Shown: one piece after another, positions 6,524 through 59,236 of the stretch | Position numbering within the stretch: position 1 is the first letter of the stretch | Layout: every line of letters starts with the position of its first letter | Virus record (IMG/VR): IMGVR_UViG_3300045988_176782 | Span: 103,279-167,278 of that record | From: a virus | Reading direction: 5' to 3' (one strand) | DNA: 64,000 bases | The notes under the pieces: generated by a model | Told to the model about the DNA's origin: nothing | Seen by the model: the letters and a program-made list of their open reading frames with translations, nothing else | The model's database searches: none | Program-made: the position numbers and the translations under genes

Positions 6524-6530
6524 TTAATAT

Positions 6531-6561
6531 GGGGAGGAATTTTCCTCCCCTTATTTTTTTT
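6531..6561 (+). terminator. intrinsic terminator
   Basis: GGGGAGGAAT/TTTCCTCCCC hairpin followed by a T-run. Confidence 0.8.
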
Positions 6562-8136: not shown

Positions 8137-8145
8137 GGTTAAGTT

Positions 8146-9261: not shown

Positions 9262-9271
9262 GGAGTAAAAA

Positions 9272-10315: not shown

Positions 10316-10336
10316 ATGGTGGTAAAGGAGTGTTTG

Positions 10337-10612: not shown

Positions 10613-11012
10613 TAATCGTTATCTTGATGCTATTTTAGAATTATGCGAAGCTATGAAAAAAGCGGGTTTTTTCTTAACTGATGAGCAAGCATTAGAAGTA
10701 CAAATTATCTATCCAATTTGGACTTCTACTGGTACTTACGCAGTAGGGGATAGAGTGCGATATAATAACGCCCTTTATCGTTGCCTTATCGCTCATACCG
10801 CTCAAGAATCTTGGACTCCTGAAGCCGCAGCTAGTTTGTGGGCAAAAATCTTAACTGACCCAAGTGGTGGGATTTTACCTTGGGAGCAACCCGACAGCAC
10901 TAATCCATACAAGAAGGGTGATAAGGTTACTCATAATGGTAAAACTTGGATAAGCACAATTGATAATAATGTATGGGAACCAGGCGTTTATGGTTGGGAA
11001 GAAGTTCAATAA
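10605..11012 (+). CDS. carbohydrate-binding (CBM5/12-like) protein
   Basis: Two units of the type Y.vGD.V.YNn.lY.C..AHT....W.P....SLW (GDRVRYNNALYRCLIAHTAQESWTPEAAASLW; GDKVTHNGKTWIST). Confidence 0.55.
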   Translation: MSDNRYLDAILELCEAMKKAGFFLTDEQALEVQIIYPIWTSTGTYAVGDRVRYNNALYRCLIAHTAQESWTPEAAASLWAKILTDPSGGILPWEQPDSTNPYKKGDKVTHNGKTWISTIDNNVWEPGVYGWEEVQ

Positions 11013-11014
11013 AT

Positions 11015-11043
11015 TTGATTTTTTATAAAATTTTCTTTATAAT
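11015..11043 (+). promoter_or_regulatory. sigma-A-type promoter TTGATT-N17-TATAAT
   Basis: -35 at 11015-20, -10 at 11038-43. Confidence 0.6.
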
Positions 11044-11097
11044 ATAATTAAAGAAAAATGAAATTTATTAGCATTATTTACTTATTTTATTAAGTCA

Positions 11098-11133
11098 AAC
11101 GCCGCAGCGTCTTGTTCATTCTGCGGCGTTTTG
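11098..11133 (+). terminator. terminator-like hairpin inside the leader of gene 11208
   Basis: AACGCCGCAG...CTGCGGCGTT plus TT, located between the promoter and the RBS. Confidence 0.55.
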
Positions 11134-11207
11134 GCATCTTTATTCTGAAAAGATGAATAAAGAAATTACCAATCGTCTGAAAAGACGACGATTAGGAGGT
11201 AATAATT

Positions 11208-13403: not shown

Positions 13404-13452
13404 ATTTGCCTATAAACAAAAATTATTGTAAAATAATTTTGGAGGATGAAAT

Positions 13453-14910
13453 ATGAAACAAGTAAATATTATTGTAAAGTCTTCTGTGCAAGAATAGGAA
13501 AAATTTATTGGAACTTATCCAGAAAAAAACCTATTAACAATTGATGCAGAAGGACAAATTATTCAAGATGATGTAATTACTCACGGTATAAAAATTGGTG
13601 ATGGCGAAACCAAATGGGATGATTTACCTTTCTTGAAGTTGCCGCCTGATATAGCGAATGATTGGAAAGTTTTAGCAGAAAGCGCGACCAATGGCCAACT
13701 TGTGACCTTACCTGATTTGAATTTTGCATATTTATTAATTGACGCAGAAAAACTAGATAACGCACAGTATACTGAAATTGTAAATCAAATTGCTTCTCGT
13801 AATATTGGTTTATATTTAGCCGCGGCAGAATCAGAAAAATCATTATACCCTGATGGAAGTCAAATTCAAAATTATGCTCTCACAATCAACACAGACGAAG
13901 ATAAACCATTCATAACTCAAGACCCAAATGGTGCAACTGCCACAAATAGTATAGTAGATAGGTTTATTTTTAATACTTCAAATGAATCCAAGTATAATAA
14001 AATTGAAGTGAAATTAAAAGATAGTGAAGCGCAAGAAAAAATTGAACAGCTTAAAGCTACGGTAGATGATAAATTTACTACTTTTTCTGAGCAAACTAAA
14101 AAAGATATTGAACAAGTAAAAAAAGATATTAAAGAATCCACCTATATTTTTGGTAGCAATAACATCCCCGAAGGAACCACAAGTGGCCTAATTCCTTTTC
14201 CTGAAGTAGAAAAACGAACAAAAGATTACTTCCTTTCTGGCGCAGGGACTTGGGAACAAATCATTCTTACCGCTGATAAAGTAAAATACACCACTCCGAC
14301 TGGTAGCCAAACATATGTTAAAGATGTGTTAGATGATTTATTGAGCGGTGCTAGTCTAAGTTTTGCTCAAGGTAGCGCGACAGACCGTCAGGTATTTATT
14401 GTTGGCGCGACACAAGAAGGTTTGAATAATAAAAAAACTACATTAAAATATAGTCCAAGTGTGTATCTTGACTGTAAGGATAATGTACTATATGGCGGCG
14501 CTTGGAATGATATTGCTGAATTTAGGGAGTCTTTTGATTCTTATGTGGCAGGAAACTGTGTATATGAAACTGCACGAGGCAAATTGATGATTTCTGATAA
14601 GCGTATGATTCCAAATAGTTATATTGTATCTGACACTTATGGTTATGCTTTGGGTGAGAAAGATATTGATACAGTTCCTGTTACTATTGCCGGTAGAGTT
14701 TTGGCTTATTATTTAGAAGATAAAAATGAACTAAAAATTGGTGATGCTGTATGCAGCGGTCCAAATGGTGCAGTTTGTAAGATGAAGAAATGGGAAAAAA
14801 TTTTACATCCTGAATGTATTATTGGCTATGTAAGTGAAATTCCTCAATATGAGATTTGGGGCCAACATAATACTTCTGTGCGCAATCGTATTTGGATTAA
14901 GGTGAAGTAA
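13453..14910 (+). CDS. second tail spike/fibre with Peptidase_G2-like C-terminal domain; one in-frame TAG (13495)
   Basis: GGAGG RBS and ATG 13453, same frame as ORF 13633-14910. The C-terminus WNDIAEFRES...TVPVTIAGRVLAYY...GDAVCSGPNG...IIGYVSEIP is paralogous to 11208-13403. Confidence 0.7.
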
Positions 14911-14911: not shown

Positions 14912-15604
14912 ATGGTAGAAAAAATTACAGCTTCTTGGTTTAATAGAATTATTGATGCCATTAAGCGTTTAAAGAATTTAGGATTTGCTTTTTCTACAGA
15001 AGGAGTCCCAAATAAAATTACCATAAATTCAGATGGCACAACAGGAAAACTTTATACTCCTTCTGACTTTAGTGCGATTAATGCAATAATTCAACGAATG
15101 TCAACAGATGAATACTTACAGCAAACAAATAACGCTTCTTATCCTGCACAACAAATTTATTATAATACTGTTTCTGTCGGTAAGCGTGGGCAAAGACCGT
15201 TATTAGATTGGAAAAATCAATTAGATAGAACGGTTGATTCTTGGCAATATATTACTTGCTATCACGGAACTGCAAAAACGAATGGTGTAAATAGCGTTGC
15301 GTGCCAGCATGGGGCGAATAGTAATGGTGATAATACGAATGGTTATTGCCAAAGAGGATTAACTCCTTGTGACCATGGAACTAATCATGTTTGTAATACT
15401 AATTATAGTAGTCAAGGTAATAAAGGTTGGCATACTAAAACTTGCTCCAACGCCACCGTAAAAGATGGAAAAGGCAGCAACACCAATGGTATGTATTCCC
15501 CTAACGGCACAAATAGTAACGGTACTTTTGCTAACACTTGTCCTCACGGAGATTGTCAGCAAGGTATCGATATTAACATTCGTTATAAAACAACACAAGG
15601 ATAA
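14912..15604 (+). CDS. tail-fibre-associated protein with Cys/His/Asn/Gly-rich C-terminal region (candidate radical-SAM substrate)
   Basis: N-terminus KITASWFNRIIDAIKRLKN. C-terminus has 8 Cys in CxHG-type motifs (CYHG, CQHG, CQRG, CDHG, CPHGDCQQG) amid N/G/S/T. Lies directly upstream of two rSAM genes. Confidence 0.6.
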   Translation: MVEKITASWFNRIIDAIKRLKNLGFAFSTEGVPNKITINSDGTTGKLYTPSDFSAINAIIQRMSTDEYLQQTNNASYPAQQIYYNTVSVGKRGQRPLLDWKNQLDRTVDSWQYITCYHGTAKTNGVNSVACQHGANSNGDNTNGYCQRGLTPCDHGTNHVCNTNYSSQGNKGWHTKTCSNATVKDGKGSNTNGMYSPNGTNSNGTFANTCPHGDCQQGIDINIRYKTTQG

Positions 15605-15613
15605 AAGAAAAGA

Positions 15614-16954
15614 ATGAATAAAAATTTAAAGCATACTGTCTTAACTTTATTTCCTTCCGCAGTTTGTAATTTAAACTGTACATACTGCAACATTAGTAAA
15701 AATAAGGCTCTAATTGAAATTGATAAAGAATTGAAAGATTTCTTTAACGACCCAGATTATATAATGCAACGAGTGCATAAGTATTTTGAACCTTGTGCTC
15801 TTACCACATTAGAAACCTGGGGCGGCGAACCTTTTCTCCATATGGATAGAATATATAAGGTATTGCCGCGACTTGTGGAAGATTATCCATATTTACAGAA
15901 TTTCTTCAGTTCTACAAATTTTTCTTTTTCTACTTGGATAGAACAATTTTTTGGCCTGATGCACCAATTTAAGCAATGGCCAGACCGTCAATTTAATTAC
16001 AAACTCCAAATTTCTTGTGATGGCCCAACTGAATTAAACGATTTGGGGCGCGGAAAAGGCACAACTTTAAAGTGCTTGGAAAATTATGCCAGATTGGTTG
16101 AGTCTTTAGAAAAGAGATTGCCTGCTAATATCAATCTTTCTATTGTTCCTAAGCCTACTTTAAATTTAGAAACAGTTCGTTTATTAAATACAAAAGAAAA
16201 AATTATAGAATATTACCAATTCTTTGAAGATTGTTTTATTAATTTAGTTAATAAGTTGGAATTTAATAATGTTCAAGCTTACACAAACACTCCGAATATG
16301 GGCGTTCCTTGTCCAGCAACAAAAGAGGACGGGTTATATTTTGCTAAGTTTGCGAAAAATTGTGCAGAAGTAAGCAAACACGCAAAGAAATACTTCAAAT
16401 ATTATACTAATGTGCGACCTTTTTCCATATATCAAAAACAAACGAAAAACCTAACTTTCTATCAATCCTGTATTGGTTGTGGTATGGGATATTCTAATAT
16501 TGGACTTTTGCCGCAAGACAAAATTTCAGTATGTAATGAAGGATTTGTTCAAACTGTAAAACAATATAATGAACTACGCTCTCAAGAGCAAGAAAGCGGC
16601 ACAATTGAAAAGAAAACTCGTCAATCAAAAAATCAACATCATCTATGCTATAGTGATGATGAATATGAGAAGTTTGAAGAACAAATGTGTAATTTCTGTT
16701 ATACTGCAAATACATCAGTTTTGGTTGGTTTATGCAATCAAATCACTCTTTTGGCTTTAAGCGGCCAGATTGATAAACAATATATACAGCAATCTAATGC
16801 TCTTCACGCCGCACAAGTTTTAGCAGGAGAATACTTTTGTTTAAAAGATAATTATGACATTACAGGATCTTTTTCTCTTGTTCCTGTAGGGTTAATTCGT
16901 TTATTATTAAATGGTGCTTTGCCATATTTGGAGAATAATGATGAAAACATTTAA
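15614..16954 (+). CDS. radical SAM protein (peptide/protein maturase-like)
   Basis: CNLNCTYC (CxxxCxxC) near the N-terminus; additional C-terminal Cys cluster SCIGCGMG...VCNEG...CNFC. Confidence 0.8.
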   Translation: MNKNLKHTVLTLFPSAVCNLNCTYCNISKNKALIEIDKELKDFFNDPDYIMQRVHKYFEPCALTTLETWGGEPFLHMDRIYKVLPRLVEDYPYLQNFFSSTNFSFSTWIEQFFGLMHQFKQWPDRQFNYKLQISCDGPTELNDLGRGKGTTLKCLENYARLVESLEKRLPANINLSIVPKPTLNLETVRLLNTKEKIIEYYQFFEDCFINLVNKLEFNNVQAYTNTPNMGVPCPATKEDGLYFAKFAKNCAEVSKHAKKYFKYYTNVRPFSIYQKQTKNLTFYQSCIGCGMGYSNIGLLPQDKISVCNEGFVQTVKQYNELRSQEQESGTIEKKTRQSKNQHHLCYSDDEYEKFEEQMCNFCYTANTSVLVGLCNQITLLALSGQIDKQYIQQSNALHAAQVLAGEYFCLKDNYDITGSFSLVPVGLIRLLLNGALPYLENNDENI

Positions 16955-18338
16955 AGAAGAAAATAACGATTTTTTAAAGTTTTTGTTAAATGAAAGGTTT
17001 TTTAAGAATTGGAAGAAACCTTCAAATAATGGCAAAGACTTACATTCTATTTCTCAAATTGAGTTTTATATTACTAACCAGTGTAATCAACATTGTGAGT
17101 ATTGTTATTTATATAATAATTACAATATCTATCCAAAAGAAGCCACAGAAGCAAAAACAATTCTTAATAATCTAACTATGGTTTTTAATTGGCTTATTGA
17201 AAATAATTATTATATTCAAACTATTGATTATTTTTCTGGCGAAATTTGGCATACTCAATTAGGATTGGACATTTTGGATTTGACCTTTAAAGCTTTACAA
17301 AATGGTTTGCAAGTTAAACGAATAATGATTCCTACAAATGGCTCATTTATTATGAATGATGCGGTTAAACAGAAAATTCAAAACTATATCAATGCTTTCC
17401 AAGACCTTGGGACAAGTCTTCAACTGTCTTTTTCCATTGATGGTAAAGTAATTGACAACTTGAATCGTCCACGTAATGACAGTTCTAAATTATATACTGA
17501 CGAATTTTATAATAAAGTATTTGATTTTGCTTATCATAATGATTTTTTCTTCCATCCAATGGTTGCTGCTTATTCTATTGAAAAATGGAAAGAAAACTTC
17601 TATTGGTGGAAAGAAATGTGCCAAAAATATAATTGGTCAACTCATTATCGTGTAATGATGTTGGAAGTGCGCAATGATGACTGGACGGAAGAAAAGATTA
17701 AAACTTATTGTGATTTTCTTACATTTTTAATGGATGATTTTAGAGAAGAAAATCCTCAATATGCTTCAATAGAAAATTTTTCTGAATTTATCTTTGGTAA
17801 ATATATAACACTAGAAGAAAACTATACTTACCTTCCTTGGGTACTTGCGCTAACTTCCGATGTTTTTTCTTGTACAATACCGTGTCAATTATGTATTCGT
17901 TTAGGCGATTTAGCTTTGGCACCTTGCCATAGAACAGCATACGATAAATTTATCTATGGCTATTTTCAAACTCAAAATGGTCGCATCGTAGACATTAAGG
18001 AAAATAATTTTTATCTTGCTGAACGATTTCTTTATATGAGCAATATTTACGCTACTCCTCATTGCGATACTTGTGTGTATAATAAGTTCTGTATAAAGGG
18101 ATGCGCAGGTTCACAGTATGAAAATACTGGAGATTTATTCTTCCCTATTCCCTCTGTATGCAAATTAGAAAAAGCAAAAATTAATACAGCAATTAACTAT
18201 TATCAAAAGAATGGCATAATTGATTACTACAAAAATCTTCCTATTGACCATTTTATGTATTCAAGTGCCTCAAGACTTTTAGGAGAAATTTATGCTATTC
18301 AAAAAGAAACCGAAACTTATTCAATCTCTAACTCTTGA
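16938..18338 (+). CDS. radical SAM/SPASM-domain protein
   Basis: CNQHCEYC motif. C-terminal CTIPCQLC...APCHR...HCDTCVYNKFCIKGCAG is SPASM-like. GGAGA RBS before ATG 16938. Confidence 0.85.
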   Translation: MMKTFKEENNDFLKFLLNERFFKNWKKPSNNGKDLHSISQIEFYITNQCNQHCEYCYLYNNYNIYPKEATEAKTILNNLTMVFNWLIENNYYIQTIDYFSGEIWHTQLGLDILDLTFKALQNGLQVKRIMIPTNGSFIMNDAVKQKIQNYINAFQDLGTSLQLSFSIDGKVIDNLNRPRNDSSKLYTDEFYNKVFDFAYHNDFFFHPMVAAYSIEKWKENFYWWKEMCQKYNWSTHYRVMMLEVRNDDWTEEKIKTYCDFLTFLMDDFREENPQYASIENFSEFIFGKYITLEENYTYLPWVLALTSDVFSCTIPCQLCIRLGDLALAPCHRTAYDKFIYGYFQTQNGRIVDIKENNFYLAERFLYMSNIYATPHCDTCVYNKFCIKGCAGSQYENTGDLFFPIPSVCKLEKAKINTAINYYQKNGIIDYYKNLPIDHFMYSSASRLLGEIYAIQKETETYSISNS

Positions 18339-39463: not shown

Positions 39464-39553
39464 TGGCCCTTAGTTGAATGGTGACAACAGCTGACTCTAA
39501 ATCAGTAAGTGGGGTTGACCCCGCAGGTCTTGGTTCGAATCCAAGAGGGCTAA
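39464..39553 (+). tRNA. suppressor tRNA, anticodon CUA (reads UAG), class II (long variable arm), no encoded CCA
   Basis: Acceptor TGGCCCT/AGGGCTA (U1-A72, G2-U71). D stem GTTG/CAAC. Anticodon stem GCTGA/TCAGT with loop CT-CTA-AA (CTA 39497-99). 22-nt variable region with GGGG-TTGA-CCCC hairpin. T arm CTTGG-TTCGAAT-CCAAG. Discriminator A. Confidence 0.8.
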
Positions 39554-39700: not shown

Positions 39701-40537
39701 ATGGGATATATTTATAAAATTACTAATGATATTAATGGAAAAGTTTATATTGGTAAAACATTAAATACGGTTGAAGCAAGATGGAAAGAACATTGTTATG
39801 ATAAAGACCGGAGAAAAGTAGAAAATCGTCCGCTTTATTAGGCAATGAATAAATATGGTCTTCAGCATTTTTCTATTGAGACTGTAGAAGAATGTAAAAC
39901 TAATTTAGAAGAACGAGAAGTTTATTGGATTAAATATTATAATTCTTATATTGGTTGGCCAAATAGCAATGGTTATAACGCTACTTTAGGTGGAGATGGA
40001 AAACAATATATTAATTATGATATGATTCGTGAATTAGCAAATACAGAAAAAACTTAGGTTGAAATTGCTGCTATTGTTGGATGTAATGTTGATACTGTGG
40101 CAAAAGTTTATTTATAGGATAATCAAGAAAATTATAATTATAATAAACGGATTAGTATCGCTGTTTATCAGAAAGATAAAGATGGTAATATTATTGCAGA
40201 GTATCCAACAATAAAATCCGCCGCAGAAGCAACCTTAACTAGTCCAAGTCATATTGGACAATGTTGTGCTGGGAAACGAAAAACTTGTGGTGGTTATTAT
40301 TGGGAATATGTTAATACTAAAGAAGGTTAGACACGGCGAGCAATTAGTAATTAGCCTAAAGTAAATATCCCGCGTGAAATATTAAAATCATTAATAAGAG
40401 AACATCCTATGGAAGAAATTGGCCGTATATATGAATGTTCTGCAGCATCAATTAGACGATGTTGCGAACGGCTAAATCTTCCACGAACTAAAAAAGAAAT
40501 CAATTCTTATTCTGATGAAGAATGGTTTAAAATATAA
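39701..40537 (+). CDS. GIY-YIG homing endonuclease with C-terminal DNA-binding modules; five in-frame TAG
   Basis: MGYIYKITNDINGKVYIGKT...RPLY*AMNKYG...REVYWIKYYNS...GYNATLGG, then NUMOD/IENR-like CGGYYWEY and an HTH-like tail. ORF 39845-40057 is in the same frame. Confidence 0.8.
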
Positions 40538-40610
40538 AGTTGTTATGGTGTGAAAATCCAACCCATCAAGCCTCTTAATAATGCTCAAACCGATGGGAGT
40601 TTCATAGCTT

Positions 40611-40816: not shown

Positions 40817-41425
40817 ATAATAAAGAAAAGATATTTTTCTTTACTATATGATACCTCGGTGAAGAGCATTTGGCCAATGTGCCGAGAACAAACGGAAGAT
40901 AGCCAGCTCCATATGATGGATACATTATATGCCTGAGCCGCGAAAACAGTGATGTTTAGCGATAGGAGAAAAGACTCCAATATCAAGTTTGTGTGCTTTG
41001 TATTTCGCAATTTAACGCATAATTTCTCTGGAGAACACAATAGAAAGCAGGATGAATAGTCCTGCCGAATCCAAGGCGCCGTTAGCTGGTGACTGTCGGG
41101 GAAAAGATACGGCCTTGGAAACAACCACAAGTTCTTTTGTGATGAAACACAGAAATGTGATATAACAGAGGTTTGTAGTCTGAGTAGCTCAACACAGCGA
41201 ACAAAAAGATGATACAAATTGGCTATTGTTTCTAATTTGCTGAATGGCTTGGGTGAAAAGTGCGAGTAGTCAATCTCGTTAGAGCGTTGTTTGGATAAAG
41301 AAGTCAAGGAGTAGCTAACTTGGCTCAGCCTTTATCTTCTCTATGGCGGAATAAGATTGAAGAAATCACAAAGTAGGGCGAAGGTCCATCAGTTAGTAGA
41401 GAAAAATATCTTTTCTTTTTTTTAT
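40817..41425 (+). ncRNA. large (about 600 nt) structured RNA closed by a 25-bp terminal helix (ROOL/GOLLD-class candidate)
   Basis: 40822-40846 AAAGAAAAGATATTTTTCTTTACTA pairs with 41394-41418 TAGTAGAGAAAAATATCTTTTCTTT (one mismatch), followed by a T-run. No sense ORF. Many internal helices, e.g. CCAAGGC...GCCTTGG and GCAGGA..TCCTGC. Confidence 0.65.
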
Positions 41426-42236: not shown

Positions 42237-43565
42237 ATGTCTGAACATGTAGGTTATGTTGTAAAAATTAATTCATTGCGGCCTCATTCTAATGCTGACC
42301 GTCTTCAAATTGCTACTATTTTTGACTCTAATGTTATTGTTAGTCTTGATACCCATCTTGATGACATTGGCGTGTATTTTCCTTCTGATATTCAGCTCTC
42401 TAAGGAATTTTGTAAAGTAAATGACCTTGTTCGTCGTAAAGATGAAAATGGCAATCCTGCAGGTGGCTATCTTGACCCAAATAAGCGTAATATTCGTCCG
42501 TTGAAGTTGCGCGGTGAAAAAAGTGATGGTCTATATCTGCCCATTACTTGTATGATGGAGTTCTGTCCTATTTCTGACCTTAAGGTTGGCGACACTATTG
42601 GTGTTGTAAATGGGCACGAAATTTGTAAGAAGTATATTCCCCATCGCACGAAGGCATACCATTATACTGAAAAAGTAAGGAAGCAAAAGGTTAATTTTGC
42701 TCCTACCTTTTTTGAGCATTGCGATACCGCTCAACTTGCATACAACCTTGAAGCTTTCCGTGCAGGAGATGTTGTAGAGCTAACTCTTAAAATGCACGGG
42801 ACCAGTGCGAGAATGGGCTATCTGCCTTTGCTGCAACCTCGGACTTTGCTAGATAAAATTCTTCGTCGCACTCGCAAAACTTATGGAAATGTTATTGGCA
42901 CTCGCCGCGTTGTATTGGATGAAACTCATACTGGTGGTTTTTATGAGGACAATGCTTTCCGACGCCATATTGCTAAAAAGGTTGAAGGAAAACTCCATCG
43001 TGGAGAAACTATTTATGGAGAAATTGTAGGCTTTCAAGGTCCCAATGGCGCGCCTATTATGTCTTCTGTGAAAAACTCTAAAATTTCCGATAAAGCATTC
43101 ACGAAGCAATATGGTGAAGAAACTGTATTCTCTTATGATTGTAATGCTGCGAATGGTTATGAAGATGAACATCCTTGTTGTGAATTATATGTTTATCGTA
43201 TGACTATGGTAAATGATGACGGCGATGTGGTAGATTACTCTCCTGCGCAAATCCGTTATCGTTGTGAGCAAATGGGAGTTAAAGTTGTTCCTCAATTTGA
43301 AGTATTCGTAATTCCTCAAGATGAACCCCATCCTGGTGAATATGTAGTACGTAAAGTTGAAGAATACTATGACGGTCCTGACCCTATTGGTAAAACCCAT
43401 GTACGCGAAGGCGTTGTTGCTCGTATTTTGAATCGGAATAATTTTGCGGTTTATAAAATGAAGAATTGGAACTTCAAATGCCTTGAGGGTATTGTTAAGG
43501 ATGAAGCGGCAGAACCAGATATGGAAGAAGCGCAAGAAGAACTAGTGGAGGAGCAAACTGAATGA
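42237..43565 (+). CDS. RNA ligase with N-terminal OB/tRNA-binding-like domain (Rnl5-like architecture)
   Basis: N-terminus VVKINSLRPHSNADRLQIATI (tRNA_bind-like). Nucleotidyl-transferase motif I LKMHGTS (KxHG). Confidence 0.65.
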   Translation: MSEHVGYVVKINSLRPHSNADRLQIATIFDSNVIVSLDTHLDDIGVYFPSDIQLSKEFCKVNDLVRRKDENGNPAGGYLDPNKRNIRPLKLRGEKSDGLYLPITCMMEFCPISDLKVGDTIGVVNGHEICKKYIPHRTKAYHYTEKVRKQKVNFAPTFFEHCDTAQLAYNLEAFRAGDVVELTLKMHGTSARMGYLPLLQPRTLLDKILRRTRKTYGNVIGTRRVVLDETHTGGFYEDNAFRRHIAKKVEGKLHRGETIYGEIVGFQGPNGAPIMSSVKNSKISDKAFTKQYGEETVFSYDCNAANGYEDEHPCCELYVYRMTMVNDDGDVVDYSPAQIRYRCEQMGVKVVPQFEVFVIPQDEPHPGEYVVRKVEEYYDGPDPIGKTHVREGVVARILNRNNFAVYKMKNWNFKCLEGIVKDEAAEPDMEEAQEELVEEQTE

Positions 43566-48624: not shown

Positions 48625-48740
48625 GCCAAGGTAGCTTAATTGGTAGAGCAATAGAGTAAAAAGGAATCTTGTAAAAGATTTTGGCCGCGATTGTTTATAT
48701 TTGGGTCTGTGTGTTCTCGGTTCAAGTCCGAGCCTTGGCT
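48625..48740 (+). ncRNA. tRNA-like gene with a 43-nt insertion in the anticodon loop
   Basis: Canonical acceptor GCCAAGG/CCTTGGC, D arm GCTT-AATTGGTA-GAGC, anticodon stem ATAGA/TCTGT, 5-nt variable region and T arm CTCGG-TTCAAGT-CCGAG. The loop is 50 nt and contains the hairpin AATCTT-GTAA-AAGATT. The 3' loop part ATTTGGG would give anticodon TTG. Confidence 0.45.
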
Positions 48741-49711: not shown

Positions 49712-49790
49712 GTGCGCGAGTAACCGAATTGGCATAGGTACTGGTCTAAGAAGCCAGGTTTTATGAGTTTAAGTCTCACCTTGCACACCA
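49712..49790 (+). tRNA. atypical tRNA, anticodon AAG (Leu codon CUU) but short variable region
   Basis: Stem CTGGT/GCCAG, loop CT-AAG-AA. Acceptor GTGCGCG/CTTGCAC has one mismatch. Irregular D arm. CCA encoded. Confidence 0.45.
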
Positions 49791-51033: not shown

Positions 51034-51065
51034 AGTCGTAATGTAATATTACGACTTTATTTTTT
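51034..51065 (+). terminator. intrinsic terminator
   Basis: AGTCGTAAT/ATTACGACT hairpin plus a T-run. Confidence 0.75.
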
Positions 51066-51092
51066 GACAAAAGTAAATTTTTCTTTTATAAT
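51064..51092 (+). promoter_or_regulatory. promoter TTGACA-N17-TATAAT
   Basis: -35 at 51064-69, -10 at 51087-92. Confidence 0.7.
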
Positions 51093-51113
51093 AAAAGAAA
51101 AGGAGATAAAAAC

Positions 51114-51386
51114 ATGATAAAAAGTGTGCCTATTAAATATGAAGAAAGTATTGAAGTGCAACGTTTATTTCATAAGTATAATGCATTGCTTGCAGTTTTG
51201 GCTTATATGAATGATAATAGTTCTAAATATACAGATTTTTTAGATAAAAAAGTGAATGAAGCTACCGAGTTATATATTGAATTAGAACAAGCAAAAGATA
51301 AATATGGCATGCGATATAAGCCACAAGGTGATTGGCAACATTATACTTTTGACTTTGATAATAATGTTATTATATATGAGGATTAA
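51114..51386 (+). CDS. small accessory protein of the CXXX-repeat modification locus
   Basis: AAGGAG RBS; 90 aa; directly precedes the rSAM maturase (TAAATG junction). Confidence 0.5.
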   Translation: MIKSVPIKYEESIEVQRLFHKYNALLAVLAYMNDNSSKYTDFLDKKVNEATELYIELEQAKDKYGMRYKPQGDWQHYTFDFDNNVIIYED

Positions 51387-52691
51387 ATGAAAAAGTCTTA
51401 TTTAGATTTAATTGCAACTTTATATTCAGAACCTGATTTACGAAGTTGTAGAAACATTACCTTATAGGTTTGCGATGATTGCTGTTTAAAATGTTCATAT
51501 TGCTATCAAATTCATAAAAGCCACAATTATATGACAAAAGAGACTGCAAAAGCCATTATTGATTTACTATTTAGAATGTATGATGAAGATAAGCCAGACG
51601 CATTTATCAATCATACAACTCATGGTATAATTCTTGATTTTATCGGTGGCGAGCCTCTAATGAACGTTGAAATTATGGAATTTGCTACTGAATACTTTAT
51701 TGACCAATGTTTGCAAAAAAATCACGAGTGGCTTTATAATTTTCGCACAAGTTTTGCAACAAATGGTATTCTTTATTTTGAACCAAAAGTATAGGCATAT
51801 TTACAAAAATTTCACAATTTTATTTCTATGACCGTTAGTATTGATGGCCCAAAAGAAATTCATGATATTTGCCGTCTTGACCGTGATGGTAATGGTAGTT
51901 TTGAACGAGCAAGTACCGCGGCGCACCATTATTGGGAATATTATGGAAAAGATGTCGGGGGACGAGATGAAACTAAAGTTACCATTGCTCCAGACAATTT
52001 ATCTCAATTAAATAAAATTGTAGATTATTTCTTAAATGAAGGCGTTACAGTGATTAATGCCAATCCAGTTTATGAAGTAGAATGGACAGTAGAATAGGCA
52101 AAAATATATTATAATGAATTAAAAAAATTAGCAAATAAATTGTTATTAAATTTAGAAATTAAATGTAGTATTTTTGATAGCCATTAGAACGTCCCCTTGC
52201 CTATTAGTGATAATACGAACTGGTGCGGCGGTGATGGACATATGTTAGCTTTTGACCCGCACGGAAATGCTTATCCTTGTTTGAGATATATGGAAAGCTC
52301 TTTAGGTGGAGAAGTTGAGCCTTTAATTATTGGTGATACTAATGGTATTTATAATACGCCAGAAAGTCAAGAAATTAGGTGTAAACTTTGTACATTAACT
52401 CGTAGTAATTAGTCTACGGAAGAATGTACGCATTGTTCAATCGCCGCGGGCTGCTCTTGGTGCAGTGCTTGGAATTATCAGCAATTTAAAAAGATCGGTA
52501 AGCGTAGCACGAATATTTGTTGGATGCACCGAGCCGCAGCATTGGCCAATGTCTATTATTGGAATCTTAAATACCGTTTAGAAGAAAATGAAAAAAGATT
52601 CCCAATTTATCTTGAACAAAAATATGCTTTGTAGATAATACCCTCTGAAGAATATGATTTGTTGCTTTCACTTTCTCAATGGGGAGAGTGA
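51387..52691 (+). CDS. radical SAM/SPASM peptide maturase (CXXX-repeat-target type candidate); six in-frame TAG
   Basis: ORFs 51531-51794, 51828-52097 and 52197-52412 are all in the frame of ATG 51387. ITL*VCDDCCLKCSYCYQ (CxxxCxxC). C-terminal CGGDG...PCLRY...CTHCSIAAGCSWCSAWN is SPASM-like. Confidence 0.75.
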
Positions 52692-52696
52692 TATTT

Positions 52697-53239
52697 ATGA
52701 GCTGGCTAAAAGGAGATAAAATTACAGCAGAGGATTTCATTGCTATTAAAGAAAAAGTTAAAAACGAATTAGCTCGGCGAAATGCAGAAGGAAGTGTAGC
52801 AAACTATGCAACGAGCTATACTGATATGCCTGTATAGAAAGGGAAAATAAAAGTTAGCCATATTACAGAAATTGTTGAACCATTGAGTCATATTAATAAT
52901 GTAGATTATGATTTAAATAAACCAATTACAATAAAATCTTTAACTACAATTCAAACAATGTTAAATAGTTTAACCACAGCAGAAAAGGCTGCATCAACAT
53001 TAGAAGCAACCGGGTGTAAAGCTTCCTGCACTGGTTTATGTTATACATCTTGTTCAGAAACGTGTCGTTCTTGTGGAGATAGTTGCAGTCAAAATTGTGA
53101 TACTGGATGCAATTGGACTTGTAAAGGGTCATGCCGCAATACTTGTTCTGGACGCTGCAAAGGTAGCTGTGGAACTACTTGCCAATTGGGCTGTTCTAAC
53201 AATTGCAAAGGAAGCAGTGTAGGTGGCTGTTCTGCATAA
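52697..53239 (+). CDS. CXXX-repeat protein: tail-fibre-like N-domain plus C-terminal run of 18 Cys; one in-frame TAG (52835)
   Basis: MSWLKGDKITAEDFIAIKEKVKNEL N-terminus. C-terminus CKASCTGLCYTSCSETCRSCGDSCSQNCDTGCNWTCKGSCRNTCSGRCKGSCGTTCQLGCSNNC (15 of 17 spacings are exactly CxxxC). Confidence 0.7.
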
Positions 53240-53476
53240 AATATACAGTAAATTAAATAAATATTAAGTGCTATAATGATCGAACAAAAATTTATTCCTT
53301 TAATAATTCAATATAATATATTCAATATATTAAATACTAAATTGCTTGTATTATTAGATTTGATTTTCCTAACCACAAAACCGTTGCTTTAGAATCTATT
53401 ATAAAATAAGGCATAGAATAATTTCCTAATTTTAACCTAAAACAAATTTAATCTAGGAGCTTCGTTGCTCCTACTT

Positions 53477-53550
53477 GCCGAAATAGCATAATGGTAGTGC
53501 AAGGCTCTTGTAAAGCTTAGATTTCAGTTCAATTCTGAATTTCGGCTCCA
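53477..53550 (+). tRNA. tRNA-Thr (TGT)
   Basis: Acceptor GCCGAAA/TTTCGGC. D arm GCAT..GTGC. Stem AGGCT/AGCTT, loop CT-TGT-AA. T arm TTCAG-TTCAATT-CTGAA. CCA encoded. Confidence 0.85.
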
Positions 53551-54026: not shown

Positions 54027-54087
54027 ATGTCTATAAAAGATAAGCAATAGCTCTATTGCTTCCAAAATGAAAAGGAGAAAAGAAAAC

Positions 54088-55575
54088 ATGAATAATCTAC
54101 TAAATTCCCTAAAGCAAGAAACCAACTATACCTACACCACCAATGGCGCAGTAGCGCACAAATCTACCCTAAACAAAGTCCTTGATCTATTTGCCCTTGG
54201 CGGCGCTTATCGTGTAAAGAGTGACAATGACGTTATTCTTCTCTTTAAAGAAGCATATGACGAGAATCCTGAACTCGCGCTAAAGTGCTTGTTCTTTATT
54301 CGTGATATTCGCGGCAATGGTTATGGTGAACGTCGCTTTTTCCGTGTATGCCTTCATTGGCTTGCTACACAACATCCCGAAGTTGTGAAGCGAAATATTA
54401 ACTATATTCCATTTGTTGGCCGTTATGACGACCTCTATGCTATAATGGATACTCCTTGTATGCTGGATGCTTTTACTTTCTTTGATCGCCAACTGCGACT
54501 TGATATGGAATGCCAAACTCCCAGTTTATGTGCAAAGTGGATTTGGTCAATGAATTGTTCTTCTGCCGAACATAAGAAATATGGTAAGGCACTTGCAGAT
54601 TATATGCGTTTAACTCCTAAGCAATATCGTAAGATGCTTACTGGTTTGCGCGCGAAGATTAAGATTGTTGAAACTCTAATGTCTCAGAATCGTTGGGATG
54701 AAATTCAATTTGATAAATTACCTTCTAAGGCCGGCTTTAAGTATCGTAATGCTTTTGCAAAGAACGATTACACTAAAGAACGCTATGAAGCCTTTATGAA
54801 GTCTAAGACCACTAAGGTAAATGCAAAAACCTTATTCCCCTATGAAGTCGTAAAGCAAGCTATTAACGCTGATTGGCAAGATGAACTAACCTGCAATACT
54901 CTTGAGAAGTATTGGGAGAATCTTGCTGACTATTTCAATAATGCTACTTTTAATGCTCTGGCCATTGTTGATACTTCTGGTTCTATGCGTAGTGGTGCTG
55001 CTTCCGCCGCGCCTATTGATGTGGCAATTTCTCTTGGTATGTATTGTGCGGAAAAAGCTAATGGTCCTTTTAAGAATCATTATATCAGTTTTTCCTCTAA
55101 GCCTCAATTGATTGAAATTAAGGGTGTCAATTTTGTTGACAAGGTTCAGCGTATTTACCAAACTAATCTTTGTGAAAATACTAACATTGAAGCTACTTTT
55201 GATCTTCTTTTAAATAATATTGTGAAGTATAATTTAAATGAAGAAGATATTCCAGAGTATCTTGTAATTATTTCCGATATGCAGTGGGACGAAGGGGTTT
55301 GTGAAATTCGCGGGCGATACTATATGCCTGCGGCGAATCCTCAAACTTTAATTGACCAAATTAAAGAAAAGTGGAAAAGTGTCGGAATAAGGATGCCTAA
55401 ATTAATTTTCTGGAATGTCAACGCAAAACATCCTGTCATCCCTGCTCTTGATGGAAATTACAGTTATATCAGCGGCTTTAGCCCCGCGATTTTTGAACAA
55501 ATTATGACCGGTAAAACCGGCGTAGAACTAATGCTTGAAGCACTAAGTTCTGAACGTTATAAAGACATTCATTAA
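54088..55575 (+). CDS. DUF2828-type protein: helical-repeat N-domain plus C-terminal vWA (Ro60/TROVE-like architecture)
   Basis: YTTNGAVAHKSTLNKVLDLFALGGAYR N-terminal signature. MIDAS IVDTSGSM. GGAGAA RBS before ATG 54088 (ATG 54067 is also in frame). Confidence 0.6.
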   Translation: MNNLLNSLKQETNYTYTTNGAVAHKSTLNKVLDLFALGGAYRVKSDNDVILLFKEAYDENPELALKCLFFIRDIRGNGYGERRFFRVCLHWLATQHPEVVKRNINYIPFVGRYDDLYAIMDTPCMLDAFTFFDRQLRLDMECQTPSLCAKWIWSMNCSSAEHKKYGKALADYMRLTPKQYRKMLTGLRAKIKIVETLMSQNRWDEIQFDKLPSKAGFKYRNAFAKNDYTKERYEAFMKSKTTKVNAKTLFPYEVVKQAINADWQDELTCNTLEKYWENLADYFNNATFNALAIVDTSGSMRSGAASAAPIDVAISLGMYCAEKANGPFKNHYISFSSKPQLIEIKGVNFVDKVQRIYQTNLCENTNIEATFDLLLNNIVKYNLNEEDIPEYLVIISDMQWDEGVCEIRGRYYMPAANPQTLIDQIKEKWKSVGIRMPKLIFWNVNAKHPVIPALDGNYSYISGFSPAIFEQIMTGKTGVELMLEALSSERYKDIH

Positions 55576-57988: not shown

Positions 57989-59236
57989 ATGAAGGCATAT
58001 TTAGCAGCGCCCATTTTTACTGAACGAGACCGAAATTTTAATTCTTATTTAGAAGCAGAAATTTTGAAAGTATGCCCTGATTTAGATTTGTATTTGGCGC
58101 AAAATAACCAAACAATTAACGATAAATCACAATGTGCAACTTCTGCTGATATTTATGTAGGAGATATTTCTCGGCTAAAACAAGCAGATTTAGTAATTAG
58201 TATTATGTCTGGAGACCTTCCTCCTATAGGAAGCTCCTATGAAACGGCGTATTTTTGTGCATTATGCGAACAAGACGACCGAAAAACTATTATTGCACTT
58301 TATGACGATAGCCGAGAAGGCAGCAAAACTTATTCTTCTGGTAAATTGGACGCAATGTTAAGTGGGATTGGCGAGAATCAATGGCCATATGTTAATTTGT
58401 TAGCAGTTGGTTACGTTAAAAAGAATGGCGTAATTTGTTCTACCAGTGAAGAACTTATTCAGCAAGTAAAGCGCCAATACGACCTTTTTACTGATTCTCG
58501 CCAAAGCGGTATTTATAAAATTACAAATTTAAAGAACAATATGATTTATATTGGTCAAACAAAAAACCTCCACGATAGGAAACTTCAGCATTGGCGACCT
58601 AGCGAACGTGAGAAGTATCGTGATGCTCCTTTATATCAAGATATGAATCAAATAGGTTTAGATTATTTTAAATTTGAGATTATTGAAAAATGTGATTTAG
58701 AGCAATTATCTGAACGTGAGCGATATTGGATTGACTACTATGATAGTTATAATTTAGGTTATAATCGTAGCAATGGTGGCTGTACTCTTGAAAATATGGA
58801 TAACTTTACAAGTAGTCAAACCACAGAAATTTATTGTTATAACTTAGATGGCAGTTTTGATAAAAAATATTGCAGTATCTCAAGTGCCGCTCGTGCTATA
58901 GGTTTTCCTCAAAGTCGTGGCGATATAAGCAGATGTGCTTTATTAAATGACAACCATCATCAATCCGGGGGAAAAATGTGGAGTTATCACTATACTGAGA
59001 ATTTTCCTCCATATCAACCTCCATTAAGGGGAAAACAGATTCATTGCTATGATTTAAAAACCAGATTATATATAAAAAGCTATGATAATGCCGTTCGTGC
59101 TGGTGAGGAAATTTTTGGGCATCGCGCTCCACATATTAATGATGCCGCTACAGGAAAGCGTTGTAGCTGTGGTGGGTATCTTTGGGCATATAAATATTTT
59201 GAACGTCTGCCAGAGAAATATCATGAAAATTTATGA
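57989..59236 (+). CDS. fusion protein: nucleoside 2-deoxyribosyltransferase-like N-domain plus GIY-YIG nuclease plus DNA-binding repeats
   Basis: N-terminus MKAYLAAPIFTERDRNFN...ADLVISIM...SSYETAYF (NDT fold). Middle SGIYKITNLKNNMIYIGQTKNL...RERYWIDYYDS..GYNRSNGG (GIY-YIG). C-terminal GGKMWSY / CGGYLWAY repeats. Confidence 0.65.
   Translation: MKAYLAAPIFTERDRNFNSYLEAEILKVCPDLDLYLAQNNQTINDKSQCATSADIYVGDISRLKQADLVISIMSGDLPPIGSSYETAYFCALCEQDDRKTIIALYDDSREGSKTYSSGKLDAMLSGIGENQWPYVNLLAVGYVKKNGVICSTSEELIQQVKRQYDLFTDSRQSGIYKITNLKNNMIYIGQTKNLHDRKLQHWRPSEREKYRDAPLYQDMNQIGLDYFKFEIIEKCDLEQLSERERYWIDYYDSYNLGYNRSNGGCTLENMDNFTSSQTTEIYCYNLDGSFDKKYCSISSAARAIGFPQSRGDISRCALLNDNHHQSGGKMWSYHYTENFPPYQPPLRGKQIHCYDLKTRLYIKSYDNAVRAGEEIFGHRAPHINDAATGKRCSCGGYLWAYKYFERLPEKYHENL

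What the first reader, a model, noticed from the sequence alone, without database searches (positions are those of the whole stretch)
51064..53239. TAG-recoded CXXX-repeat radical-SAM modification system whose substrate is fused to a tail-fibre-like domain
- One promoter drives three genes: a 90-aa accessory protein, a radical SAM/SPASM enzyme with six in-frame TAG, and a 180-aa protein.
- The last 75 residues of that third protein hold 18 Cys, and 15 of the 17 spacings are exactly CxxxC (53015-53236).
- The trio matches my recollection of the uncharacterised 'CXXX-repeat peptide / radical SAM maturase / modification-system protein' families defined by genome context. No chemistry or function is known for them.
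- Two things are unusual here. The locus sits in a phage and is expressed only under amber suppression, that is, late.
- The Cys repeat is also attached to an N-terminal domain (W..gdkITAEDF..I.EKV) of the kind found at the start of phage tail-fibre and tip proteins. That suggests a post-translationally cross-linked virion component rather than a secreted peptide.
Basis: partly seen in the sequence, partly recalled or inferred. Interest (0 to 1): 0.85.

Follow-up and report, generated by a model that had tools for sequence, protein, structure and literature searches.

The report
Phage radical-SAM system for Cys-repeat protein
A gut phage that reads TAG as glutamine carries a three-gene cassette in which a radical SAM enzyme probably cross-links a 180-residue protein ending in 18 evenly spaced cysteines; hundreds of other phages and prophages keep the same cassette among their tail genes, so it may be an enzymatically cross-linked virion part.

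Summary
A perfect sigma-70 promoter (51064-51092) precedes three tightly packed genes. They are a 90-aa accessory protein, a 434-aa radical SAM/SPASM enzyme with six in-frame TAG, and a 180-aa protein. That protein's last 74 residues hold 18 Cys, and 15 of 17 spacings are CxxxC. The NCBIfam CXXX-repeat models are the best hits for all three, but all score below their curated cut-offs.

The locus is a distinct phage-type variant of that system. It lacks the second maturase (TIGR04119). Its target carries a conserved ~105-aa helical N-domain instead of the Tat signal seen in the Bacteroidales type. This variant is not unusual in phages. At least 551 protein clusters, at least 274 IMG/VR contigs and many Clostridia prophages carry it, usually between baseplate or tail-fibre genes and the lysis genes.

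All six TAG codons align to Gln codons in an 83%-identical orthologue.

The N-domain shows no detectable homology to tail-fibre N-termini, and late expression is untested. The most likely function is a tail-associated structural protein hardened by many thioether cross-links. That function is inferred, not shown. No paper in the held library describes it.

The parts
51034..51066 (+). Terminator-like hairpin of the upstream gene: 9-bp stem 51034-51042/51048-51056, 5-nt loop, then a T-rich tail. It isolates the cassette as its own transcription unit.
   Evidence: Read directly from the sequence. A comparable hairpin followed by a T-run precedes the promoter in L003 and L004.
51064..51092 (+). 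Sigma-70-type promoter TTGACA-17-TATAAT.
   Evidence: 12/12 consensus match. Both hexamers and the spacing are kept in L003 and L004, although the surrounding sequence differs in L004.
51114..51386 (+). Accessory protein, 90 aa: a divergent member of the CXXX-repeat system protein family (TIGR04116-like). No TAG. GGAG ribosome-binding site at 51102-51105.
   Evidence: TIGR04116 E=0.0015, 18.7 bits, aligned over 4-89 of 90 profile positions. BLAST links it to the L005/L007 accessories (E 1e-10 to 1e-14) and to the Bacteroidales accessory of L002 (1e-3). L002's accessory scores 104.6 bits on TIGR04116. An HMM of seven accessories finds one in 69 of 80 genome loci and 76 of 80 viral loci. The AF2 model has pLDDT 93.6, with strand, two long helices and two strands.
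51387..52691 (+). Radical SAM/SPASM maturase, 434 aa. Six in-frame TAG are read as Gln. It has the CX3CX2C motif (C32, C36, C39) and seven auxiliary-cluster Cys (C280, C298, C347, C350, C356, C359, C378). It has no N-terminal RRE domain.
   Evidence: TIGR04115 2.2e-98, 330 bits; PapB family 138.7 bits. phrog_1802 1e-49. The invariant Cys come from alignment A4. The closest solved structure is CteB 5WGG (E 5e-39), aligned from CteB residue 91. All six TAG align to CAA/CAG in L004.
52668..52691 (+). 10-bp hairpin spanning the last rSAM codons and the ribosome-binding site of the target gene. It could couple target translation to full-length translation of the enzyme (speculative).
   Evidence: Listed by the terminator scan. 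RNAfold gives -12.8 to -13.7 kcal/mol in the window and L003, and a weaker 8-bp version (-6.3) in L004.
52697..53014 (+). N-domain of the target protein (residues 1-106). It is family-specific and predicted as three helices. One TAG at 52835.
   Evidence: An exhaustive HMM search found 79 representatives at E<1e-3, nearly all 170-250 aa with the same architecture. K18, K22, E24, R27, R28 and Y37 are invariant in 104 sequences. AF2 pLDDT is 58-74 with helices 11-27, 53-64 and 79-97.
53015..53239 (+). CXXX-repeat tail of the target (residues 107-180, 18 Cys) plus the TAA stop. The conserved entry motif is C-x-(A/S)-S-C-(T/S)-G-(L/M)-C.
   Evidence: Across the family 88% of Cys spacings are 4 and 10% are 3, with a median of 23 Cys. 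TIGR04117 E 4.8e-5 and TIGR04114 E 3.8e-3. The precomputed Pfam hit PF27846 (tSAM_targ_Cxxx_rpt) is on the 96%-identical P0001.
39464..39553 (+). Suppressor tRNA with anticodon CUA, needed to translate the enzyme and the target.
   Evidence: ARAGORN. Rfam tRNA model 58.9 bits.

Best explanation
This is a phage-type, three-gene variant of the CXXX-repeat radical SAM modification system.

Proposed steps:
1. A strong promoter transcribes the accessory gene, the enzyme gene and the target gene together.
2. The enzyme and the target can be translated only when the phage's own tRNA(CUA) reads TAG as glutamine.
3. The radical SAM/SPASM enzyme has one SAM cluster and two auxiliary clusters but no peptide-recognition (RRE) domain of its own. 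Helped by the 90-aa accessory protein, it recognises the helical N-domain and/or the conserved C-x-S-S-C-T-G-L-C entry motif of the target.
4. It then works along the ~74-residue Cys-every-fourth tail and installs many intramolecular cross-links. By analogy with its nearest characterised relatives (CteB, PapB, QhpD), these are most likely thioether (S-C) bonds.
5. The product is a rigid rod or knot that resists reduction and proteases, carried on a small helical adaptor domain. It most likely becomes part of, or attaches to, the tail or baseplate-fibre apparatus.
6. Such a part can be made in the cytoplasm of strict anaerobes and stay stable outside the cell, where disulfides would not form or last.

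Shown here: gene structure, family relationship, TAG = Gln, and the wide tail-module synteny of the family.
Inferred: that the repeat is the substrate, the thioether chemistry, and incorporation into the virion.
For: - Family assignment: TIGR04115 at 330 bits is far above the next model. The accessory aligns over its full length to TIGR04116, and the repeat matches TIGR04114/04117. L008's enzyme, which belongs to the same N-domain subtype, scores 471 bits, above the cut-off.
- Enzyme integrity: the CX3CX2C motif and all seven SPASM Cys are invariant in A4.
- Chemistry lead: the nearest characterised relatives are thioether formers. CteB 5WGG gives E 5e-39. The PapB, SCIFF and QhpD models are the next best hits. 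Their chemistry is described in PMC12373016 and PMC10352776.
- Coding: all six TAG align to Gln codons in the orthologue, and two fall on family-invariant Gln (Q136, Q342). A tRNA(CUA) is present.
- Target family: at least 551 clusters share the N-domain plus Cys-repeat architecture.
- Synteny in single loci: the cassette follows Baseplate_J/Tail_P2_I in P2-like myophages (L008/L009). It follows the portal, capsid and large tail ORFs in a P22-portal phage (L007). It lies next to endolysin and holin genes in L005.
- Pfam census of 11 prophage loci: Baseplate_J, YQBQ, Mu_Gp48, Sheath_initiator, Tail_P2_I, Mtd_N, Phage_tail_fib, holin, amidase.
- PHROG census of 19 viral loci: tail fibre, baseplate wedge, tail collar fibre, minor tail and endolysin families.
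- No peptidase or exporter is among the 25 most frequent neighbour families in either census.
- In relatives L098/L101/L117 the accessory and rSAM genes directly follow tail-fibre ORFs.
- The Bacteroidales counterpart of the target carries a Tat signal, so it too is matured in the cytoplasm and then used outside the cell.
- Hosts named in the genome records are almost all anaerobes.
Against: - In this window the trio does not lie in the tail module. It sits about 36 kb from the tail-fibre genes, inside a tRNA and RNA-metabolism region.
- No homology links the N-domain to any known virion protein.
- The AF2 model of the target is poor (pLDDT 53) and the Cys tail is unpredictable.
- No acceptor residue is conserved in the repeat. 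Position x2 is Gly in 44% of repeats and x1/x3 are mostly S, T or G. The cross-link chemistry therefore cannot be read from the sequence.
- All three HMM scores are below curated cut-offs.
- The cassette often lies at the boundary with the lysis genes, so a lysis-related role is not excluded.
- There is no proteomic or biochemical evidence of any kind.
Confidence: 0.5

Rival explanations
1. The target is a precursor of a released RiPP-like product such as a bacteriocin, toxin or signal. The N-domain would act as a long leader that is cut off, and the cross-linked Cys-rich core would be freed at lysis to act on competing bacteria or on the host.
For: - The enzyme belongs to the SPASM peptide-maturase radiation, whose characterised members make RiPPs.
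- The conserved junction motif C-x-S-S-C-T-G-L-C looks like a leader/core boundary.
- In the window the cassette lies outside the structural module, like a moron gene.
Against: - No protease, ABC exporter or immunity gene is among the most frequent neighbour families in 30 surveyed loci.
- The 'leader' is a conserved ~105-aa folded domain.
- In some relatives the order is reversed, with the Cys repeat first and an N-domain-like motif last (L048, L042).
- Cores of 74 to more than 500 residues with 17 to more than 130 Cys are far outside known RiPP sizes.
- The position among tail genes is consistent across loci.
Confidence: 0.12
2. The protein works inside the infected cell and is not part of the virion. 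It could be a metal- or cluster-binding protein (metallothionein-like), a redox buffer, or an assembly factor for tail fibres that is matured by the rSAM enzyme.
For: - The tail is 24% Cys with Gly, Ser and Thr and has no conserved acceptor residue, which would suit metal binding.
- Tail modules commonly carry assembly chaperones that are absent from particles (general phage knowledge).
- A fast-evolving 170-200-aa ORF usually follows the target gene, as chaperone genes often follow fibre genes.
Against: - Metal binding alone would not need a dedicated two-auxiliary-cluster SPASM maturase and an accessory protein, which co-occur with the target in 76 of 80 viral loci.
- The Bacteroidales homologues of the target are exported by Tat, which points to a role outside the cell.
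Confidence: 0.15
3. The cassette belongs to the lysis or host-envelope module. The cross-linked protein would act on the cell envelope at the end of infection or at entry, rather than serving as a tail structural element.
For: In many loci the cassette directly precedes endolysin and holin genes (L005, L007). Endolysin families are among the most frequent neighbours.
Against: - The end of the tail-fibre block normally abuts the lysis genes in tailed phages, so this adjacency says little.
- In L008/L009 the cassette lies between Tail_P2_I and further tail-fibre-like ORFs, several genes away from the holin.
- The protein has no signal peptide or transmembrane segment.
Confidence: 0.08

Closest known systems
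NCBIfam/TIGRFAMs CXXX-repeat peptide modification system (TIGR04114 target repeat, TIGR04115 rSAM maturase, TIGR04116 system protein, TIGR04119 second maturase), defined by genome context; here represented by the Bacteroidales-type locus L002
   Same: - Same enzyme family: TIGR04115 is the best hit, with full-length alignment 2-359/359.
- Same ~90-aa accessory family.
- Same Cys-every-fourth target repeat.
- The genes are adjacent.
   Different: - No TIGR04119 maturase: 0 of 80 viral and 0 of 39 Firmicutes loci have one, against 35 of 41 Bacteroidales loci.
- The target has a conserved ~105-aa helical N-domain instead of a Tat signal.
- The accessory is very divergent (18.7 vs 104.6 bits).
- The enzyme scores just under the cut-off (330 vs 350; the Bacteroidales type scores 630).
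- It is encoded in phage tail modules, not in cellular operons.
CteB (PDB 5WGG/5WHY), the thioether-forming SCIFF/ranthipeptide maturase of Clostridium thermocellum
   Same: It is the closest solved structure (E 5e-39). It shares the radical SAM core plus a SPASM domain with two auxiliary clusters, and it acts on Cys-containing peptides.
   Different: CteB has a ~90-residue N-terminal RRE domain, and the alignment starts only at CteB residue 91. CteB makes one Cys-Thr link in a ~45-aa peptide (PMC10352776). Here the target is a 180-aa protein with 18 Cys.
PapB / freyrasin (ranthipeptide with six CX3D motifs, each cross-linked Cys-to-Asp)
   Same: It is the second-best NCBIfam model (138.7 bits). 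The logic is the same: one enzyme processes a tandem array of short repeats, each holding one Cys at a fixed period.
   Different: The score is far below the cut-off of 340. The acceptor Asp of the CX3D motif is missing: the residue four positions on is another Cys, and no acceptor side chain is conserved. PapB chemistry is taken from PMC12373016.
TAG-to-Gln recoded gut phages (genetic code 15)
   Same: In-frame TAG at conserved Gln positions, a phage-encoded tRNA(CUA), and recoding that varies by gene. TAG=Gln was validated by metaproteomics in crAss-like phages (PMC9523058). Suppressor tRNAs are discussed in PMC10879173.
   Different: This is a genome-wide property of the phage and is not specific to the cassette. 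The orthologous rSAM in L004 has no TAG, while its target has five.

Membership tests
CXXX-repeat rSAM modification system (NCBIfam TIGR04114/04115/04116/04119) | The rSAM maturase reaches the curated TIGR04115 cut-off (350 bits). | tested here: not met
   The score is 330.1 bits (E 2.2e-98) with TAG read as Gln, just under the cut-off. The next family (PapB) scores 138.7. Other enzymes of the same phage/N-domain subtype score 300 (L001) to 471 (L008), and the Bacteroidales type scores 630.
CXXX-repeat rSAM modification system | An intact radical SAM CX3CX2C motif and a seven-Cys SPASM domain. | tested here: met
   C32, C36 and C39, plus C280, C298, C347, C350, C356, C359 and C378, are invariant in alignment A4.
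CXXX-repeat rSAM modification system | An adjacent target with tandem Cys-Xaa-Xaa-Xaa repeats. | tested here: met
   18 Cys with 15 of 17 spacings equal to 4, beyond any of 200,000 shuffles. However, TIGR04114 scores 17.6 vs 20 and TIGR04117 scores 23.4 vs 50, both below cut-off. Pfam PF27846 is precomputed on the 96%-identical P0001.
CXXX-repeat rSAM modification system | A ~90-aa system protein (TIGR04116) in the same operon. | tested here: inconclusive
   18.7 bits vs a cut-off of 50, but aligned over 4-89 of 90 positions. Homology by chain: window to L004 to L002, where L002 scores 104.6 bits. A custom HMM finds the protein in both system types.
CXXX-repeat rSAM modification system | A second maturase (TIGR04119, a SPASM-only protein). 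| tested here: not met
   phmmer with L002's TIGR04119 protein finds nothing in the window, 0 of 80 viral loci and 0 of 39 Firmicutes loci, against 35 of 41 Bacteroidales loci.
Ranthipeptide maturases of the PapB family (NF047865) | Score at or above 340 bits, and a CX3D/E acceptor motif in the substrate. | tested here: not met
   138.7 bits. The tail holds only 2 Asp and 1 Glu, and the family shows no conserved acidic position.
SCIFF/CteB-type maturases | An N-terminal RRE peptide-binding domain fused to the rSAM core. | tested here: not met
   The alignment to the SCIFF, QhpD and nif11 models starts at profile positions 77-96 and to CteB at residue 91. The window enzyme has only ~21 residues before the core.
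Stand-alone RRE (PqqD-like) proteins, considered for the accessory protein | A winged-helix fold with a three-stranded sheet followed by three helices, or a PqqD HMM hit. | tested here: not met
   There is no Pfam PqqD hit. The AF2 model (pLDDT 93.6) has strand, two long helices and two strands. Foldseek against the PDB gives no match with E<0.4, only helical hairpins. The profile search against PDB sequences found nothing.
   PHROGs hits cover only the Cys-rich part (residues 86-179). hhalign against the tail-fibre protein P0059 gives probability 0.1%, and against the window's tail-module protein 14912-15604 gives 4%. Foldseek against BFVD and PDB finds only uncharacterised proteins of the same family.
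Phage tail-module genes (by position) | Conserved position among baseplate, tail-fibre and lysis genes in unrelated phages. | tested here: met
   This holds for the family but not for this window, where the trio lies in a tRNA region.
Genetic code 15 phages (TAG = Gln) | In-frame TAG at conserved Gln positions, plus a tRNA(CUA). | tested here: met
   6 of 6 TAG align to CAA/CAG in L004, and Q136 and Q342 are invariant in the family. The tRNA lies at 39464-39553.

The most novel reading that the evidence does not exclude
A large, unrecognised class of tailed phages of gut anaerobes builds part of its tail or baseplate-fibre apparatus from a protein that a phage-encoded radical SAM enzyme staples with about 15-30 (in extreme cases more than 100) thioether cross-links. 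It would be the first virion structural protein matured in the manner of a RiPP. The likely rationale is a disulfide-free way to make an extracellular protein rigid and protease-resistant in a reducing habitat. The orphan 'CXXX-repeat' system of the databases would then be, in its Firmicutes branch, a phage structural module.
Probability: 0.4. Interest if true: 0.85.

Novelty: new variant of a known kind. Interest (0 to 1): 0.72.

Why it matters
- The CXXX-repeat system is one of the context-defined radical SAM families for which I found no described chemistry or biology. I searched the held paper library with seven relevant queries.
- This work places a whole branch of the system in phage tail modules: at least 551 target clusters and at least 274 viral contigs, plus prophages of cultured Clostridia.
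- That turns an orphan enzyme family into a concrete, testable hypothesis: enzymatic multi-thioether stapling of a virion-associated protein.
- If true, it would be a new kind of phage structural biochemistry.
- It would also be a new substrate class for RiPP-type maturases, namely whole proteins with very long repeat arrays.
- It could supply hyper-stable protein scaffolds for engineering.
- Cultured lysogens exist, so the experiment is feasible now.

Tried and rejected
1. Accessory protein as an RRE/PqqD supplied in trans. This was attractive because the enzyme lacks an RRE. It was rejected as a fold assignment: the confident AF2 model has a different topology and no PDB match. A recognition role is still possible.
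2. N-domain as a tail-fibre N-terminal domain. No support from PHROGs, hhalign or Foldseek.
3. Homology between this target and the Cys/His/Asn-rich protein of the window's second rSAM system (14912-15604). hhalign probability is 4%, so I treat it as a separate system.
4. Structure of the target. The AF2 model has pLDDT 53, the Cys tail is not modelled, and the fold searches gave nothing useful.
5. The search for related loci with the target alignment failed because no stretch was conserved enough. I used the rSAM alignment instead.
6. megablast of 24 kb of the window against GenBank phages found no match. tblastn of a family member (P0171) also found none. The rSAM query found near-full-length (at least 80% of the query) relatives only in unannotated human faecal 'Bacteriophage sp.' contigs. 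No cultured phage record in that collection carries the cassette.
7. Literature. Seven relevant queries (CXXX repeat, TIGR accession numbers, ranthipeptide + phage, radical SAM + tail fiber, SPASM + bacteriophage, CX3 + Bacteroides, phage-encoded RiPP) found no paper on this system.
8. A conserved fourth gene. A 170-200-aa ORF usually follows the target, but its versions are mostly not detectably homologous to each other. Only the c170 and c174 groups are related (79% probability). It is absent from the window.
Full report
**1. What is in the sequence**

The window has 35.8% G+C. About 20 kb more of it lies in long ORFs when TAG is read as sense. It carries 13 tRNA genes by ARAGORN, including a tRNA with anticodon CUA at 39464-39553.

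Upstream of the finding, a 79-aa ORF ends at 51033. A 9-bp hairpin and a T-run follow it (51034-51066, read). A perfect sigma-70 consensus promoter, TTGACA-17-TATAAT, lies at 51064-51092. Three genes follow:
- 51114-51386: 90 aa, with a GGAG ribosome-binding site at 51102-51105.
- 51387-52691: 434 aa, starting at the base after the previous stop. It has six in-frame TAG and ends with TGA.
- 52697-53239: 180 aa, with one in-frame TAG at 52835.

The last 74 residues of the third protein hold 18 Cys, and 15 of 17 spacings equal 4. In 200,000 shuffles of that tail the maximum was 10. The only additions are the TAG in the third gene and the choice of 52697, not 52679, as its start. Homologues P0001 and P0002 begin MSWLKGDK.

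**2. TAG is glutamine**

In the 83%-identical orthologue L004, all six TAG positions of the enzyme are CAA or CAG. In the 93% orthologue L003, two are CAA and four are TAG. Two of the positions (Q136, Q342) are invariant Gln in an alignment of seven enzymes from both system types.

The first TAG is codon 27, before the CX3CX2C motif, so no enzyme can be made without suppression. The target would be cut at residue 46.

TAG use is a property of the whole genome and varies by gene. Some tail-fibre genes have 0 TAG and others have 3. L004's enzyme has none, while its target has five. 'Expressed late' is therefore a reasonable inference from what is known of code-15 phages (PMC9523058, PMC10879173, and my own recollection of Borges et al. 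2022). It is not shown here.

**3. Family assignment**

With TAG read as Gln, the enzyme's best NCBIfam hit is TIGR04115 (CXXX-repeat target family) at E 2.2e-98 and 330 bits, aligned over 2-359 of 359 positions. The curated cut-off is 350 bits. The next models are PapB (138.7 bits), SCIFF maturase, QhpD and others.
- The 90-aa protein aligns over its full length to TIGR04116, but weakly (18.7 bits; cut-off 50).
- The Cys tail matches TIGR04117 (E 4.8e-5) and TIGR04114 (E 3.8e-3), both below cut-off.
- The local Pfam copy sees only Radical_SAM, below threshold. The precomputed Pfam hit PF27846, 'tSAM_targ_Cxxx_rpt', is attached to the 96%-identical P0001.

**4. Two system types**

A metagenomic contig that looks bacterial (L002) shows the canonical system:
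- a Tat-signal Cys-repeat protein;
- an rSAM at 630 bits on TIGR04115;
- a second SPASM protein at 235 bits on TIGR04119;
- an accessory at 104.6 bits on TIGR04116.

A scan of one genome per species with an rSAM alignment found more than 535 relatives, and the best 80 fall into two groups.
- Bacteroidales loci (L049-L089) have targets with SRREFFK-type Tat signals. 35 of 41 have a TIGR04119-like gene.
- Loci L010-L048, mostly Clostridia, have enzymes closer to the window's (35-45% identity). 30 of 39 have a target with the same N-domain as the window protein. None has TIGR04119.

The window belongs to this second type.

**5. The target family**

An exhaustive profile search with residues 1-106 found 79 representatives at 50% identity. 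Almost all are 170-250 aa with the N-domain followed by a Cys repeat. A word-indexed profile search found at least 551 clusters at 90% identity.

In 104 aligned members K18, K22, E24, R27, R28, Y37 and the first Cys of the tail are invariant. The tail always opens with C-x-(A/S)-S-C-(T/S)-G-(L/M)-C.

Across the family:
- 88% of Cys spacings are 4 and 10% are 3;
- the median is 23 Cys;
- the tail composition is C 24%, G 21%, S 16%, T 11%;
- no acceptor side chain is conserved.

Variants exist. One protein has 650 aa and more than 130 Cys (L044). Others carry the Cys repeat first and an N-domain-like motif last (L048, L042).

AF2 predicts the N-domain as three helices with modest confidence and cannot model the tail. 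Foldseek finds only uncharacterised virome proteins of the same family in BFVD and nothing in the PDB.

**6. Where the cassette sits**

Three look-ups of family members gave:
- a P2-like myophage in which the cassette follows Baseplate_J and Tail_P2_I and precedes further tail-fibre-like ORFs and a diversity-generating reverse transcriptase (L008/L009);
- a phage with a P22-type portal in which the cassette follows the capsid gene and two large ORFs and precedes an amidase (L007);
- a 156-kb NCBI contig in which it precedes an endolysin and a holin (L005).

A Pfam census of 149 ORFs from 11 Firmicutes loci is dominated by Baseplate_J, YQBQ, Mu Gp48, sheath initiator, Tail_P2_I, Mtd_N, tail-collar fibre, holin, amidase and integrase.

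A scan of IMG/VR found at least 274 viral contigs. Of the best 80, 63 have the N-domain target and 76 have the accessory. A PHROG census of 145 neighbouring ORFs from 19 of them gives tail fibre, baseplate wedge, minor tail, tail collar fibre, virion structural protein and many endolysins.

In three TAG-recoded relatives (53% identity) the accessory and enzyme genes directly follow tail-fibre ORFs. L001, a human faecal phage contig, has the cassette between tail-fibre-like ORFs.

The window itself is an exception. The trio lies within the tRNA array, near an RNA ligase and an RNA-binding protein. It is about 36 kb from the tail-fibre block at 1728-14910. In the sister phage L091 the trio is adjacent to a second rSAM system. 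In the window that second system sits at the end of the tail-fibre block.

**7. Mechanism**

The enzyme has the SAM-cluster motif and all seven SPASM cysteines. Its closest solved relative is CteB (E 5e-39), but the alignment starts at CteB residue 91, so the window enzyme lacks the RRE domain. The same offset is seen against the SCIFF, QhpD and nif11 models.

I tested whether the accessory protein supplies an RRE. Its AF2 model is confident (pLDDT 93.6), but the topology (strand, two long helices, two strands) is not the RRE fold, and nothing in the PDB matches. It may still be the recognition subunit, but that is unproven.

All nearest characterised relatives make Cys thioethers (PMC10352776, PMC12373016). 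I therefore infer multiple S-C cross-links along the repeat. Because no acceptor side chain is conserved, backbone C-alpha (sactionine-like) or side chains of variable residues are both possible.

A 10-bp hairpin covers the target's ribosome-binding site and the enzyme's stop codon (52668-52691; -13 kcal/mol). A weaker equivalent exists in L004. This could make target translation depend on ribosomes finishing the enzyme gene. It is speculative.

**8. Function**

The best-supported reading is a tail-associated structural protein made rigid and resistant by enzymatic cross-links. Four points favour it:
- the synteny described above;
- the absence of protease or exporter genes among the most frequent neighbour families;
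- the size and domain structure of the target;
- the parallel with the Tat-exported cellular homologues, which are also matured in the cytoplasm for use outside the cell.

The rivals are a released RiPP-like product, an intracellular metal-binding or assembly factor, and a lysis-associated factor. None is excluded, because there is no protein-level evidence.

**9. Comparison and novelty**

The locus works like, and is related to, the context-defined CXXX-repeat system. It fails the curated thresholds, lacks one of the four canonical components, and has a different target architecture and genomic setting. I file it as a new variant of a known but uncharacterised kind. I found no paper on it in the held library. 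In GenBank phage records, relatives covering at least 80% of the enzyme occur only in unannotated faecal contigs.

**10. Verdict**

The finding is real and correctly classified in outline. Its most interesting claim, a cross-linked virion component, is strengthened by family-wide synteny but remains an inference. The tail-fibre homology claim is not supported. The TAG gating reflects the phage's genetic code and is not a special feature of the cassette.

Noticed in passing
window 14912-18338 (+): A second, different radical SAM system lies at the end of the tail-fibre block. It has a 230-aa protein whose C-terminal half is rich in Cys, His, Asn, Gly and Thr, followed by two rSAM/SPASM-like ORFs (446 aa with CNLNCTYC; ~465-475 aa with CNQHCEYC). 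These give only weak hits to PapB-type and other peptide maturases. The same set lies right next to the CXXX trio in the sister phage (L091 10512-13828).
   Followed up: partly
window 1728-14910 (+): A row of about ten tail-fibre-like genes. Several share an N-terminal motif (MAE.IL.TRI.LKYDT..NW) that matches PHROG tail-fibre families. Some hold 0 in-frame TAG and others 1-3, so recoding is uneven even within one module.
   Followed up: partly
window 40831-41406 (+) and 40562-40598 (+): A full-length ROOL RNA (Rfam RF03087, 296 bits, model positions 1-574 of 574), with an abiF RNA motif (RF03085, 49.9 bits) just upstream. Both lie close to the suppressor tRNA and upstream of an RNA ligase gene (42237-43565).
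   Followed up: no
window 39464-39553 (+): The tRNA(CUA) is 90 nt long with a long extra arm, like class II tRNAs (Leu/Ser/Tyr). Yet comparative evidence says TAG is read as Gln. Its identity elements and charging enzyme are unexplained.
   Followed up: no
window 48625-48740 and 49714-49787 (+): Rfam finds two further tRNA-like genes that ARAGORN did not list. One spans 116 nt and may contain an insertion or intron.
   Followed up: no
window 53276-53392 (+): A short ORF (MIEQKFIPLIIQYNIF...) resembles the start of a 165-aa gene that follows the cassette in the sister phage (L091 9417-9914). The window and L003 seem to have lost the two genes (174 and 165 aa) that follow the target there. A fast-evolving 170-200-aa ORF follows the target in most loci of the family.
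   Followed up: partly
window 53454-53550 (+): No terminator is evident between the target's stop codon and tRNA-Thr (53477-53550), so the cassette may be co-transcribed with this tRNA.
   Followed up: no
window 54067-55575 and 42237-43565 (+): An RNA-binding protein (phrog_850, E 1e-124) and an RNA ligase (phrog_968, E 3e-65) flank the tRNA array. Together with the ROOL RNA this suggests an RNA repair or maintenance region.
   Followed up: no
window 39701-40537 and 57989-59236 (+): ORFs with GIY-YIG-like motifs (YKITN..NGK.YIGQ/KT), probably homing endonucleases. The first holds five in-frame TAG.
   Followed up: no
L008 12616-13713 and L009 12536-13399; also the Pfam census of A5: Reverse-transcriptase (RVT_1) and Mtd_N genes of diversity-generating retroelements lie a few genes downstream of the cassette in several prophages. 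This fits a receptor-binding neighbourhood.
   Followed up: no
L044 3333-5285: An extreme family member: a 650-aa protein with the same N-domain and more than 130 Cys in CXXX/CXX repeats, from a MAG labelled 'uncultured Tenericutes'.
   Followed up: no
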